From Thermoanaerobaculia bacterium (lineage in GTDB: Bacteria; Acidobacteriota; Thermoanaerobaculia; UBA5066), in assembly GCA_963719225.1 (NCBI GenBank), contig CAVRAY010000001.1:1152001-1216000 (forward strand): DNA of 64,000 nt, in the 5' to 3' direction. The first letter of the stretch is position 1. Each line of letters starts with the position of its first letter. The notes under the pieces are model-generated. The model was not told the origin of the DNA, did no database searches, and saw only the letters and a list, made by a program, of their open reading frames with translations. Made by a program: the position numbers and the translations under genes. Below, one piece after another: positions 441 to 60,207 of the stretch.

Positions 441-1108
441 TTTGTTTCGGAAGAAGACGAAGGAAGAGAAGAATTCTTGGAAGGTGAATGTCCGGAGGCG
501 GCGGGTTTCGCCTCGCCCTGGCCCGCCACGAGAGCGGCTTTGTCCAGCGCCACTCGATCTTCCTTTCCAAGGAAATCTTCGGGCATGTGCCGGGAGGCCT
601 GGAGGGTGCGGATCCACGCGACGATCGCCCAGCGGTCTTCGGGCGTCACCTGCACGGCATAGCCAGACATCTGGCCGAAGCCGTTCGTGATGACGTCGAA
701 GAAGTAGCCCGCGCGCTCGGCTCTGAGTCGCTCCACGTGGTAGGAGGCCGGCTGCTTGAAGCCGCGGTGGACGATCATGCCCTGTCCCTGGCCGGTCCGT
801 CCGTGGCACGGCGAACAGAAGATGTTGAAGCGCTCCTGGCCGCGCAGGAGAAGCTCGCGCGTGACAGGCACGGGGATCTCCTCGACGAACTTGCCGTCGG
901 GGCCCTGGCCGCGCGAGAGAGCCGCGTCGCCGCGGAGGAACCCGCGCGCGACGGTGCCCTCGGGCAGCGCGCGTGCCGAGGCGCCGTCCGAAAAGAACGT
1001 GCTTTCGCGGAACGGCTTGATCTTGGCCTGGTGGTGCATGTCGTTCCGGCAGCCCGAGAGCGCGAGCGCGAGAACTGGCGCGGCGGCGAGGAGGAAGCTG
1101 CGGCGCAT
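437..1108 (-). CDS. actE: ACIII monoheme cytochrome c lipoprotein ActE
   Basis: Start MRRSFLLAAAP, lipobox LSGC followed by RNDMHHQAK, one CSPCH heme motif, position in the operon. Confidence 0.9.
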   Translation of the reverse strand: MRRSFLLAAAPVLALALSGCRNDMHHQAKIKPFRESTFFSDGASARALPEGTVARGFLRGDAALSRGQGPDGKFVEEIPVPVTRELLLRGQERFNIFCSPCHGRTGQGQGMIVHRGFKQPASYHVERLRAERAGYFFDVITNGFGQMSGYAVQVTPEDRWAIVAWIRTLQASRHMPEDFLGKEDRVALDKAALVAGQGEAKPAASGHSPSKNSSLPSSSSETK

Positions 1109-1722
1109 CAGTCCTCCACGTCCGAGACGAGGCTCGCGCCGAGCGTCTCCATGAAGCGGAAGGTGTCGCCGGCGCGGAAGCGCGGGTCGCGCGCGAGGAT
1201 CATGAGGAAGTACCGGTCGCGCGAGGCGAGCTGGAACCGCGGCACGGAGAAGACCGGGTGGTACGGCATCGGCAGGCCGTTCAGCACGAGCATGCCGAGC
1301 ACGGCCGCGATCCCCGCGAAGAGGATCGTGCACTCGAACGTGATCGGAATGAAGGACACCCAGCTGTTGTACGGGCGCCCTCCGATGTTCAGCGGGTAGT
1401 CGACGGCCGAAGTCCAGTACTGGAGGAAGAAGCCGAAGAAGCCCCCCAGGATCCCTCCGATCAGGACCAGGAGGGGAACCCGGGACGGGCCGTGCCCGAT
1501 CGCGTCATGCAGCTCCTCGATCGGATAGGGCGTGTAGGCCTCGATGACCTGGTAGCCCTCTTTGCGGACCGCGTGAACCGCGTGGACGAGCGCTTCGGGC
1601 TTTCCGAACTCGGCGATCACGCCGTAGAGGTGCGGGGGCAGATCGCCGCCCTCCTCGCGCGGGCCGGGCGTTCCGAACTCCGGCTTGACGTGGCGGGTGA
1701 ACAGCCGCGACAGGAAGCTCAC
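1108..1722 (-). CDS. actD: ACIII subunit ActD (DUF3341)
   Basis: C-terminal part of ORF 1108..2994. GTG start overlaps the actC stop. Motifs EAYTPYPIEEL, DYPLNIGGRP, FIPITFE. Confidence 0.88.
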   Translation of the reverse strand: MSFLSRLFTRHVKPEFGTPGPREEGGDLPPHLYGVIAEFGKPEALVHAVHAVRKEGYQVIEAYTPYPIEELHDAIGHGPSRVPLLVLIGGILGGFFGFFLQYWTSAVDYPLNIGGRPYNSWVSFIPITFECTILFAGIAAVLGMLVLNGLPMPYHPVFSVPRFQLASRDRYFLMILARDPRFRAGDTFRFMETLGASLVSDVED

Positions 1723-3095
1723 GGCTTCACCTCGCCGGCCTGCTCCTCGAAATCGTGACCCGTCGTGATCCCGCGCATCTCGAAGATCGAGATGACGGGG
1801 AGGAACCGGATGAAGAGGAACATGAGCGAGAAGAAGAGGCCCAGAGAGCCCACGAAGAAGGCCCAGTCCCAGCGCGTCGGCGTGTACATGCCCCACGAGG
1901 ACGGGAGAAAGTCGCGGTGGAGGCTCGTGACGACGATGACGAACCGCTCCAGCCACATGCCGACGTTCACGACGATCGAGAGCACGAAGAGCGCGAGGAC
2001 CGAGCCGCGAATCTTCCTCAGCCACAGGAGCTGCGGCGTGAGGATGTTGCACAGGATGAGGAGGAACCAGACCCAGCCGTACGGCCCGAGAATGCGGTTG
2101 TGCATCATGTATTGCTCGAACGTGTTGCCGCTGTACCAGGCCATGAACAGCTCGATCCCGTAGCCGTAGGCCACGATGAGGCCCGTCGCGAGCATGACCT
2201 TCGCCATGTTCTGCAGGTGCCGCATCGTGATGAAGTCCTCGAGCCCGAACACCTTGCGGAGCGGGATCGCGAGCGACATCACCATCGCGAAGCCCGAGTA
2301 GATCGCCCCCGCGACGAAGTAGGGCGGGAAGATCGTGGAGTGCCAGCCCGGAACGATGCCGACCGCGAAGTCGAAGCTCACGACCGTGTGGACGGAGACG
2401 ACGAGCGGTGTCGCGAGCCCGGCGAGAAGGAGGCTCGCCGTCTCGTAGTTGTGCCAGTGCCGCGCCGAGCCGCGCCAGCCCATGGCGAGCATCCCGTACG
2501 TGATCTTCCCGAACCAGTGCTTGCTGCGGTCGCGGAGCGTGGCGAGGTCGGGAATGAGGCCCACGAACCAGAACAGAGCCGAGATCGTGGCGTACGTCGA
2601 GACGGCGAAGACGTCCCACATGAGGGGGCTGCGGAACTGGGGCCACACGCCCATGGTGTTCGGATAGGGAAAGAGCCAGTACACCGCGAGCCACTGGCGC
2701 CCCGTGTGGAAGAGCACGAACTGCGCGGCCGCGGCGACCGCGAAGAGCGTCATCGCCTCGGCGAAGCGGTTGATGGAGGTACGCCACGTCTGGCGGAGGA
2801 GCAGCAGGATCGCCGAGATGAGCGTCCCCGCGTGGCCGATGCCGATCCACCAGACGAAGTTCACGATGGCGAAACCCCAGCCGACGGGGATATTGACGCC
2901 CCAGATCCCGACACCGACGAAGAGGAGCTTCAGCATCGCCATGAGGAGGAGCTGCAGCGCCATGAACGCGATGAAGAAGCCGAGGTACCACCATTTCGGT
3001 GTCTTGCGCAGGACGACCGCGCTGATCTTGTCGGTCACCGTCGCCGGCGTGTAGCCGGGCGCGATGACAGGCGGACGATCTGCGTTCGCGGACAC
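1719..3095 (-). CDS. actC: ACIII subunit ActC (NrfD/PsrC family quinol-binding membrane protein)
   Basis: NFVWWIGIGHAGTLISAIL, WRTSINRFAEAMT, FRSPLMWDVFAVSTY, GWHSTIFPPYFVAGA. Confidence 0.95.
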   Translation of the reverse strand: MSANADRPPVIAPGYTPATVTDKISAVVLRKTPKWWYLGFFIAFMALQLLLMAMLKLLFVGVGIWGVNIPVGWGFAIVNFVWWIGIGHAGTLISAILLLLRQTWRTSINRFAEAMTLFAVAAAAQFVLFHTGRQWLAVYWLFPYPNTMGVWPQFRSPLMWDVFAVSTYATISALFWFVGLIPDLATLRDRSKHWFGKITYGMLAMGWRGSARHWHNYETASLLLAGLATPLVVSVHTVVSFDFAVGIVPGWHSTIFPPYFVAGAIYSGFAMVMSLAIPLRKVFGLEDFITMRHLQNMAKVMLATGLIVAYGYGIELFMAWYSGNTFEQYMMHNRILGPYGWVWFLLILCNILTPQLLWLRKIRGSVLALFVLSIVVNVGMWLERFVIVVTSLHRDFLPSSWGMYTPTRWDWAFFVGSLGLFFSLMFLFIRFLPVISIFEMRGITTGHDFEEQAGEVKP

Positions 3096-59607: not shown

Positions 59608-60129
59608 CCGCGCCCGCCTGACGGCCTCCCGCGAGAGCTGCCGGGCCTCGGAGAGGAGCCGCGCCACCGTCTTTCCGGTTCCGGGCACCACGCGCCGCGG
59701 CGCGACGTCCGCGAGCGGGACGAGGACGAAGAGACGGCTCGTCATCCGCGGGTGCGGAACGGTCAGGCGCCGCGTCGCGATCCGCTCGTTTCCATAGAGG
59801 AGGAGGTCGAGGTCGAGGGGGCGAGGCGCGTTTCGAGGCCCGCCCGGCTTTCGGCCGGCAGAGATTTCGGATTTTCTTAGATGGGTGAGGAGGGCCTGCG
59901 CAGAGAGCGAGGTCGTTCCGACGATGACGGCATTGAGGTAGTCGGGCTGATCGGATGGGCCTCCGACCGGCGAGGTGCCATAGAGAAGAGATATTTTAGG
60001 ATTTCTTAGAAAGGGAGAGAGGCTTCGGAGCGCGTTGCGGAAGGCGCGACGGGTGTTGCCGACGTTGCCGCCCACGCCGATGGCCACGAAGACGGGCCTG
60101 GGGCGCGCCAGGGCTCTTTTCACCTTCAT
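59599..60129 (-). CDS. folK: 2-amino-4-hydroxy-6-hydroxymethyldihydropteridine diphosphokinase
   Basis: IGVGGNVG, QPDYLNAV, PRPLDLDLL, LTVPHPR, FVLVPL. Confidence 0.93.
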   Translation of the reverse strand: MKVKRALARPRPVFVAIGVGGNVGNTRRAFRNALRSLSPFLRNPKISLLYGTSPVGGPSDQPDYLNAVIVGTTSLSAQALLTHLRKSEISAGRKPGGPRNAPRPLDLDLLLYGNERIATRRLTVPHPRMTSRLFVLVPLADVAPRRVVPGTGKTVARLLSEARQLSREAVRRARSF

Positions 60130-60207
60130 CCACGTCCCCGCCTCGCGGCTCGGCCGCGGCACGTACCTACGATCCTCGCCTGCGGCTCGGCTCTTCGGTT
60201 CTAAGAA
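59874..60207. repeat. Cluster of three dispersed motifs in and upstream of folK
   Basis: TTCTTAGAT at 59874, TTCTTAGAA at 60003, TTCTAAGAA at 60199. Confidence 0.75.

What the first reader, a model, noticed from the sequence alone, without database searches (positions are those of the whole stretch)
474..60207. Dispersed AT-rich motif TTCT(A/T)AGAA written into unrelated genes: candidate chromosome-wide protein-binding code
Seen: exact TTCTAAGAA at 32268, 39213, 47387, 51048 and 60199, and its reverse complement TTCTTAGAA at 40569, 50887 and 60003. Variants with 1-2 mismatches occur at 474, 565, 3109, 7392, 7585, 7717, 26932, 32711, 33757, 42691, 47278 and 59874. The oriented consensus is about YTTCTAAGAAATC. 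A rough base-composition estimate, assuming 69% GC, predicts about 0.03 exact copies in 64 kb; I count 8. Six of the 8 are inside CDSs, on either strand and in different frames, and they force codons that are rare here: TTC-TTA-GAA (mnmA, ABC ATPase), TCT-AAG-AAA (copA, hlyD, mnmA), CTA-AGA-AAT (folK), and CTT-AGA in the actB and RND variants. Protein sequence therefore does not explain the motif. Inference: a DNA-level signal comparable to matS, SlmA/Noc sites, parS or DNA-uptake sequences, or the target of an unknown nucleoid or modification protein. I do not recognise it as a described bacterial motif.
Basis: partly seen in the sequence, partly recalled or inferred. Interest (0 to 1): 0.85.

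Follow-up and report, generated by a model that had tools for sequence, protein, structure and literature searches.

The report
Terminus-graded paired DNA code overwriting genes
An uncultured Acidobacteriota lineage carries about 900 copies of a 30-base DNA word, mostly as back-to-back pairs about 100 bases apart, written over ordinary genes at the cost of changed amino acids and several-fold denser towards the replication terminus, which likely marks docking sites for a still unidentified chromosome-organising protein.

Summary
In detail: 8 exact copies against 0.03 expected, 6 in CDS. The genome (Thermoanaerobaculia) has 273 exact copies and 891 PWM sites of a ~30-bp oriented motif. A codon-aware null gives 57-63 CDS sites against 543 seen.

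(1) Sites come as inverted doublets in one fixed order, purine-rich arm first. Among neighbours within 260 bp, 283 are -+ and 7 are +-; median spacing is 106 bp, with a lower edge near 66 bp. Spacers are unrelated and GC-rich, with no hairpin excess or helical phasing.
(2) Density falls 3- to 6-fold from dif to the origin side, with no replichore polarity.

Sites are kept at DNA level: rare codons are retained 72% vs 14%, and amino-acid identity at sites is halved against motif-free relatives. The motif is confined to one genus (26/26) and, weakly, its sister genus. It fails defining tests for matS, uptake sequences and REPINs. The best reading is paired binding sites of an unknown terminus-biased chromosome-organising protein (~0.5). 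No candidate reader fitted the motif's distribution. I found nothing on it in print.

The parts
474..573 (.). Doublet: site 474 (-) and site 565 (+), 91 bp apart, inside a cytochrome c gene (437-1108, -)
3109..3117 (+). Single site in the last codons of the actB-like gene (3101-6013, -); no partner found
7392..7725 (.). Cluster - - + (7392, 7585, 7717) in an ORF without a Pfam hit (6995-8674, +)
8333..8341 (+).
26932..26940 (+). Single strong site (37 bits) in an MFS transporter gene (-)
32268..32276 (+). Exact site in copA, in the linker between the YHS and HMBD domains
32711..33765 (+). Three further sites in copA (32711, 33672, 33757; the last two are a same-orientation pair 85 bp apart)
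39213..39221 (+). Exact site in an ABC ATPase gene (-), read as F-L-E on the gene strand
40569..40577 (-). Exact site in an hlyD-type adaptor gene (-)
42691..42699 (+). Variant site in an RND (AcrB family) gene (-)
47278..47395 (.). Intergenic doublet: 47278 (-) and 47387 (+), 109 bp apart
50887..51056 (.). Doublet inside mnmA: 50887 (-) and 51048 (+), 161 bp apart; same positions in the 7 closest relatives, absent in more distant ones, no indel
59874..60207 (.). Cluster - - +: 59874 and 60003 in folK (-), 60199 intergenic (196 bp from 60003)

Best explanation
The word is a selected, oriented ~30-bp DNA signal used in back-to-back pairs and concentrated towards the terminus, and it is likely the binding site of an unidentified sequence-specific chromosome-organising protein that would need two inverted sites at once. 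Shown: the doublet order (purine-rich arm, then a 66-220-bp unrelated GC-rich spacer, then the pyrimidine-rich arm), DNA-level purifying selection, altered host proteins, independence from gene and replichore orientation, the gradient from dif, and the restriction to two sister genera. Inferred: one two-fold symmetric complex bridges the arms into a small U-turn loop, or two complexes load back to back; the ~66-bp lower edge would be the steric or bending minimum. Inferred: about 500 clusters, one per ~6 kb in the terminus half, act as anchor or barrier points that organise or help segregate the late-replicating half of the chromosome. New sites would arise stepwise in tolerant protein segments and in spacers that lengthen to hold them.
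For: Enrichment: 891 sites >=16 bits against ~21 in an order-5 Markov simulation; 543 CDS sites against 57-63 when codons are resampled on the same proteins, exact 9-mer 147 against 0-2. Pairing: neighbours <=260 bp are 283 -+, 45 --, 42 ++ and 7 +-, against ~11 -+ expected if uniform; 660 of 891 sites lie in clusters with a -+ pair. Lone sites have weak partners only on the inner, opposite-strand side: 43 of 199 at >=8 bits, against 4-6 for the other three geometries. No strand bias by gene (263 sense, 277 antisense) or by replichore (186/181 and 252/272). Gradient from dif: CDS 21.5 falling to 4.9-7.7 per 100 kb, intergenic 103 falling to 16-19. About two-fold in G231: 41 of 71 exact 15-mers within about 0.85 Mb of dif, ~41% of the genome (hand count). 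Selection: rare codons at sites kept in 72% of 75 aligned cases against 14% of 538 elsewhere in same-genus orthologues. Orthologous sites kept in 15/20 (G231), 7/29 (G174), 3/44 (G082) and 0/51 (G166); amino-acid identity at sites 0.30 against 0.61 gene-wide versus G166. dif itself is flanked by two doublets in this genome.
Against: No reader identified: seven candidate proteins were profiled and none matched the motif's range. No 9-12.5-bp phasing in 244 spacings or in the 91 intergenic ones, although small protein-held loops are usually phased (recalled). 231 of 891 sites are not in a -+ cluster, and only about a third of lone sites have a detectable partner. The doublets around dif are not conserved: 2 of 21 same-genus loci have no site at all and many have one arm. 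Part of the gradient could reflect tolerance, since genes >=75% identical to G082 carry few sites (6 against 28-33 per 100 kb). Distances beyond contig C1 assume C1 and C2 form one circle. Site-bearing spacers are longer than their orthologues (median +78 bp), which also fits insertion.
Confidence: 0.5

Rival explanations
1. A DNA-uptake signal accumulated by biased uptake and recombination (molecular drive), as for Pasteurellaceae USS, with a receptor that prefers two inverted sites.
For: Similar length, ~60% in CDS, all six frames, protein sequence altered, both orientations equal, sparser in genes without a G082 homologue (11 against 23 per 100 kb); these match USS features in PMC2817400 (passages read). 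ComEA-type domains are present in 22/22 same-genus genomes. A second, secreted double-HhH ComEA-like gene carrying three sites is in 22/26 g1, 5/8 g11 and 0/17 g13 genomes.
Against: USS/DUS are spread more evenly than random, and their dyads lie in intergenic terminators; only ~10% are inverted repeats (PMC1939737). Here 74% of sites are in doublet clusters, 152 of 283 doublets lie within one CDS, cluster spacing is over-dispersed (mean 6.3 kb, sd 7.8 kb), and density is graded from dif. The double-HhH gene was not found in four motif-rich genomes (G009, G016, G268, G283; two are 99% complete) and is present in motif-free G267.
Confidence: 0.17
2. A relic or domesticated non-autonomous mobile doublet (REPIN-, MITE- or RPE-like) whose arms are spread by insertion or gene conversion and later kept.
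For: Inverted-doublet layout with a similar size range. Junctions with a doublet are longer than in G082 by a median of 78 bp (n=23), with a single site by 42 bp (n=24), and with none by 0 (n=423). 10 of 51 and 17 of 44 CDS sites overlap alignment gaps. Around dif, doublets are gained or lost as blocks, with some deletion ends inside sites.
Against: Most CDS sites have no indel; the mnmA pair brackets conserved protein with none. Spacers are unrelated: 213 of 266 have no similar spacer, and the only large family is paralogous kinase genes. No hairpin excess. Y1_Tnp/RAYT found in only 3/22 same-genus genomes against 14/14 motif-free g13; GxxExxY family 0/49. No mobile gene was found framed by the arms.
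Confidence: 0.14
3. A back-to-back loading or blocking signal for a DNA motor or ring (SMC, FtsK, helicase, topoisomerase) rather than a static bridge.
For: A sharp minimum spacing, a broad upper tail and no phasing are what two independently bound, oppositely facing complexes would give. The terminus gradient fits segregation. SMC, ScpAB, FtsK and a second gyrA/parC-type and gyrB/parE-type gene are present (motif regexes).
Against: No polarity towards dif, unlike KOPS (recalled). These machines are not clade-specific, and no adaptor was found.
Confidence: 0.12
4. An RNA-level or transcription signal (long-range stem, terminator, promoter pair).
For: Intergenic density is 4-5 times the CDS density. 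The arms are complementary by consensus, and the 9-bp cores of partners are slightly more alike than shuffled partners (7.66 against 7.57; 4 of 1000 shuffles).
Against: Flanks do not co-vary. Duplex energy of real partners is -25.5 against -25.3 +/- 0.45 permuted, and spacer folding z is 0.15 against 0.0. A stem would form equally in +- order, which is almost absent. No preference for convergent (5.2 per 10 kb) or divergent (3.9) over tandem (6.6) spacers.
Confidence: 0.05

Closest known systems
matS / MatP (E. coli Ter macrodomain)
   Same: Sequence-specific word enriched towards the terminus, independent of gene layout.
   Different: matS is 13 bp, with 23 sites about 35 kb apart confined to Ter (PMC6907758, passages). 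Here there are ~900 oriented 30-bp sites in doublets with a smooth chromosome-wide gradient, and MatP was not found.
DNA uptake sequences (Pasteurellaceae USS, Neisseriaceae DUS)
   Same: Non-palindromic, clade-specific, hundreds of copies, majority in CDS, all frames, reshapes proteins.
   Different: Doublets inside CDS with 66-220-bp spacers, clustered rather than even, graded from dif; uptake function untested.
REPINs / BIMEs with RAYT transposase
   Same: Two inverted arms around a variable spacer, hundreds of copies; BIMEs are proposed supercoiling barriers.
   Different: Mostly intragenic without insertion, continuous rather than discrete spacings, no hairpin, RAYT depleted in the clade.
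Noc/NBS, SlmA/SBS, parS and ParB half-sites (recalled; PMC5961200 seen as a search listing only)
   Same: Dispersed sites read by chromosome-cycle proteins, often inside genes.
   Different: Those are palindromic single sites that avoid the terminus or cluster at the origin; the gradient here is the opposite, and one canonical parS lies by the origin parB.

Membership tests
matS/MatP | MatP encoded | tested here: not met
   PF06303 not found in G000 (97% complete); the control rang in E. coli
matS/MatP | About 23 short sites confined to the Ter macrodomain | tested here: not met
   891 sites, chromosome-wide with a 3- to 6-fold gradient
matS/MatP | Enrichment towards the terminus | tested here: met
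DNA uptake sequences (USS/DUS) | Large excess, both orientations, many in CDS, altered peptides | tested here: met
DNA uptake sequences (USS/DUS) | More even than random; dyads mainly as intergenic terminators | tested here: not met
   Over-dispersed clusters, 152 of 283 doublets inside one CDS, gradient
DNA uptake sequences (USS/DUS) | Preferential uptake by competent cells | not testable with these tools
   Uncultured; ComEA-type genes present; the double-HhH paralogue fits the range only partly
REPIN/REP-RAYT | Inverted doublet of arms | tested here: met
   283 -+ against 7 +-
REPIN/REP-RAYT | Spacer forms a hairpin; extragenic; discrete spacings | tested here: not met
   No folding excess; 540 of 891 sites in CDS; continuous spacing
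REPIN/REP-RAYT | Cognate RAYT gene | tested here: not met
   Y1_Tnp not found in G000, found in 3/22 of the genus
KOPS / Chi / AIMS-type polar motifs | Orientation skewed by replichore | tested here: not met
   186/181 and 252/272
ParB-family sites (parS, Noc) | Cognate ParB paralogue co-distributed with the motif | tested here: not met
   The dif-linked second ParB is order-wide, and its recognition helix is essentially unchanged in motif-free relatives
Nucleoid-protein binding site (general) | Direct binding, looping or barrier activity | not testable with these tools
   needs pull-down, ChIP or Micro-C

The most novel reading that the evidence does not exclude
A bacterial lineage evolved a hard-wired chromosome-folding code. 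Hundreds of oriented doublets, written into protein genes at a measurable cost, tell a new site-specific protein where to set loop apexes or supercoil barriers, most densely in the terminus half. These would be sequence-defined domain boundaries, which bacteria are generally thought to lack.
Probability: 0.3. Interest if true: 0.92.

Novelty: categorically new. Interest (0 to 1): 0.78.

Why it matters
The nature of the barriers that divide a nucleoid into topological domains is listed as an open question (PMC6907758). A sequence-defined, paired, position-graded signal with ~500 loci makes that question directly testable: the oligo doublet is a ready bait, and sister genera give high-, low- and zero-copy controls. 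Independently of mechanism, it is a clear case of a second code overriding protein sequence. Identity to outgroup proteins halves at sites, which will also distort phylogenies and selection scans in this clade. Earlier unchecked notes of this scan describe what appears to be the same doublet motif in other genomes; the short summaries I saw mention neither a dif-centred gradient nor candidate exclusions.

Tried and rejected
Reader hunt; none of the candidates fits.
- dif-linked second ParB: a ParB match in 90/91 genomes of the order, with the paralogue itself in nearly all, and an unchanged recognition helix.
- 164-aa AT-hook protein: 53/60 of the family, including 17/17 motif-free g13; Atlas hits <0.9.
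- Myb-like/TPR protein and a 70-aa protein by parE: 5/5, including negatives.
- Three small basic proteins: 0/5.
- Double-HhH ComEA-like protein: partial fit only.
- Synteny subtraction against 1.2 of 4.2 Mb of G082 gave 62 soluble candidates, none convincing; G082 proved a low-density positive (26 sites, 5 -+ pairs, no +-), so it is a poor negative.
- The shortlist covered only short basic proteins (166 passed the filter), so most of the proteome is untested.

Other tests that led nowhere:
- A conserved box 14 bp from dif is unrelated to the motif (motif sites have a median score of -5.6 on its matrix).
- The first PWM iteration without de-duplication drifted, and its reversed-genome control was invalid; replaced.
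- One search listed only part of the G231 sites and was not used for the gradient.
- No dialect of the motif was found de novo in 66-400 kb samples of G166, G028, G033, G085, G108 and G169; the samples are small.
- No match in viral contigs for two strict patterns.
- No RNA holder listed; contigs of related strains at 85-99% identity were uninformative on the sites.

Literature searches returned no description of the motif; I saw listings and abstract starts only. The library lacks most subscription papers. I did not read supplements.
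Full report
CHECK. The window is G000:C1:1152001-1216000 of a 4.75-Mb, 2-contig genome. The nearest MnmA relatives are labelled Thermoanaerobaculia/Acidobacteriota. Six of eight lie in CDS, and the codon readings are right. 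Gene calls are from my own hexamer gene finder (4046 genes, 89% coding), so CDS boundaries are approximate.

THE MOTIF. There are 273 exact 9-mers genome-wide, against 48 for the reversed control. An iterated matrix converges on an oriented ~31-bp word: pyrimidines, TTCACC, TTC(T/G)AAGAA, AWTCTTC, then a pyrimidine-rich tail that fades over ~40 bp. It finds 891 sites at >=16 bits, against ~21 in an order-5 Markov simulation. 540 sites are in confident CDS, 284 intergenic and 67 at edges. All six frames are used, 263 sense and 277 antisense. Resampling synonymous codons on the same proteins gives 57-63 sites and 0-2 exact copies, against 543 and 147.

THE UNIT IS A DOUBLET. Among neighbours <=260 bp apart, 283 are minus-then-plus, 87 same-strand and 7 plus-then-minus; about 11 minus-then-plus would be expected. 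257 of the 283 spacings are 66-220 bp (median 106) and 17 are shorter. 660 of 891 sites are in clusters containing such a pair. On either strand the purine-rich arm comes first; 'divergent' or 'convergent' depends only on how the motif strand is named. 152 doublets lie within one CDS and 97 are fully intergenic. Lone sites often have a weak partner, and only in the expected geometry. Spacers are GC-rich (0.72, against 0.68 for CDS and 0.645 intergenic) and unrelated apart from paralogous genes. Partner arms do not co-vary in the flanks; the core shows a small excess (7.66 against 7.57, 4 of 1000 shuffles). There is no duplex or folding advantage and no helical phasing. In the window, 12 of 23 sites are in five doublet clusters.

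POSITION. dnaA and the canonical parB are on C2. A dif-like site lies at about C1:2,037,580, where GC skew flips, and is present beside a second parAB operon in all 30 loci examined (dif identified by recalled consensus). Site density falls with distance from dif in both CDS (21.5, 19.9, 18.1, 16.0, 9.1, 8.4, 4.9, 7.7 per 100 kb in 300-kb bins) and spacers (103, 75, 78, 71, 59, 43, 19, 16). This assumes C1 and C2 form one circle; the fall is also visible along C1 alone. G231 shows about two-fold (41 of 71 sites in ~41% of the genome; hand count). There is no replichore polarity. Clusters in the terminus half are 6.3 kb apart on average, sd 7.8 kb. Highly conserved genes carry few sites, so tolerance may contribute to the CDS gradient; it does not obviously explain the spacer gradient.

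RANGE. A 13-base pattern occurs 82-360 times in 26 of 26 other genomes of the genus, 14-50 times in 6 of 8 of the sister genus g11, 3 and 1 times in G082 and G272, and 0-2 times in the other 26 family members. It is at control level across 251 class and 401 phylum genomes outside this clade. G174, G231 and even G082 keep the -+ order. This contradicts earlier notes that call the signal class-wide, at least for this sequence.

EVOLUTION. The mnmA doublet is at identical positions in the 7 closest of 36 loci scanned; 28 have no site (one stops short of the positions) and one has a weak site elsewhere. Outgroup proteins align without an indel but with different residues. Orthologous CDS sites are kept in 15/20, 7/29, 3/44 and 0/51 cases in G231, G174, G082 and G166. 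Amino-acid identity at sites is about half the gene average against G082 and G166, and 17/44 and 10/51 sites overlap gaps. Within the genus, codons at sites are more conserved (79% of 163 against 63% of 5541), and rare codons far more (72% of 75 against 14% of 538). Spacers with doublets are longer than their G082 orthologues by a median of 78 bp, and near dif doublets come and go as blocks. So sites arise both by overwriting and with added sequence, and are then kept by selection on DNA.

MECHANISM. Shown: an oriented, paired, selected, terminus-graded DNA signal. Inferred: it is read on double-stranded DNA by a protein, since RNA or hairpin models predict co-variation and indifference to arm order, and neither holds. 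The fixed order and minimum gap suggest one symmetric complex bridging a U-turn, or two complexes back to back; the lack of phasing weakens a rigid loop and keeps the back-to-back loader alive. The gradient points to chromosome organisation or segregation rather than uptake or transposition. I put 0.5 on an organising protein, 0.12 on a motor-loading variant, 0.17 on uptake drive, 0.14 on a mobile relic and 0.05 on an RNA signal.

READER. Not found. The dif-linked ParB is order-wide with an unchanged recognition helix. A basic AT-hook protein is family-wide. Others were universal or private. MatP was not found; Y1_Tnp is rare in the genus; the GxxExxY family was not found. A secreted double-HhH ComEA-like gene is the closest fit (22/26 g1, 5/8 g11, 0/17 g13), but it is missing in four motif-rich genomes and present in a motif-free one. 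Only a small part of the proteome could be profiled.

COMPARISON. I read passages of PMC2817400 and PMC1939737 (uptake sequences), PMC6907758 (matS, BIMEs, domain barriers) and PMC3337134 (REPINs). Each family shares some features and fails a defining one (see Membership tests). Noc, SlmA, KOPS and Chi properties are recalled. Five searches for the motif or its layout found no description. Earlier notes of this scan report apparently the same doublets in other genomes. They are unchecked, their letters were cut so identity is inferred, and they are not independent support.

VERDICT. Real, strongly selected, undescribed in the literature I could search, and not a member of any tested family. 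The mechanism is inferred. Interest 0.78.

Noticed in passing
G000:C1:2037570-2039520 (L081:9570-11525): A second parAB operon sits directly beside dif at the terminus. The ParB paralogue is found across the order, and dif follows it within 77-353 bp in 30 of 30 loci. A terminus-linked ParAB is unusual; one literature search found nothing relevant.
   Followed up: partly
G000:C1:2037610-2037626 and C1:1590215-1590313: A palindromic box (CC[TG]WA-N5-TW[AC]GG) lies a fixed 14 bp from dif in nearly all family members. Three copies precede a gene that looks like lexA, and two weaker ones lie between an Lrp-like gene and a glgC-like gene, so it is probably a LexA operator next to dif.
   Followed up: partly
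L172:4045-4539 (G000:C1:3836045-3836539, -): 164-aa very basic protein with two helical repeats and an AT-hook-like RGRP linker, no Pfam family, present in 53 of 60 family genomes; likely a new nucleoid-associated protein.
   Followed up: partly
L282:2226-2921 (G000:C1:1007226-1007921, +): Secreted double-HhH ComEA-like paralogue with a long low-complexity linker that itself contains a motif site; patchy range.
   Followed up: partly
G000:C1:1103000-1113500 and C1:2197200-2208300: Two arrays of attC-like repeats between small genes, with a tyrosine recombinase at C1:1115037; probable chromosomal integrons. A similar array is in G231.
   Followed up: no
G000:C1:2295000-2320000: Tandem array of Ser/Thr kinase paralogues, each carrying a 93-bp doublet at the same place in the kinase domain; the same spacing recurs in G174.
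   Followed up: partly
L227, L229 (G033), L238-L240 (G169), L231 (G085): Motif-free families carry other inverted arrays of short tandem units between genes (7-mer arrays in G033 and G169, 9-mer-like arms in G169, a 44-bp tandem array in G085); unrelated in sequence to this motif.
   Followed up: no
G000:C2:189237 and C2:628873; C2:27765 and C2:775752: Duplicated genes on C2 (a Myb-like/TPR protein, an smpB-like gene) fit the 6% contamination estimate; part of C2 may come from another strain.
   Followed up: no
family f1: Y1_Tnp transposases are found in 14/14 g13 and 6/6 g11 genomes but only 3/22 of the motif-rich genus.
   Followed up: no
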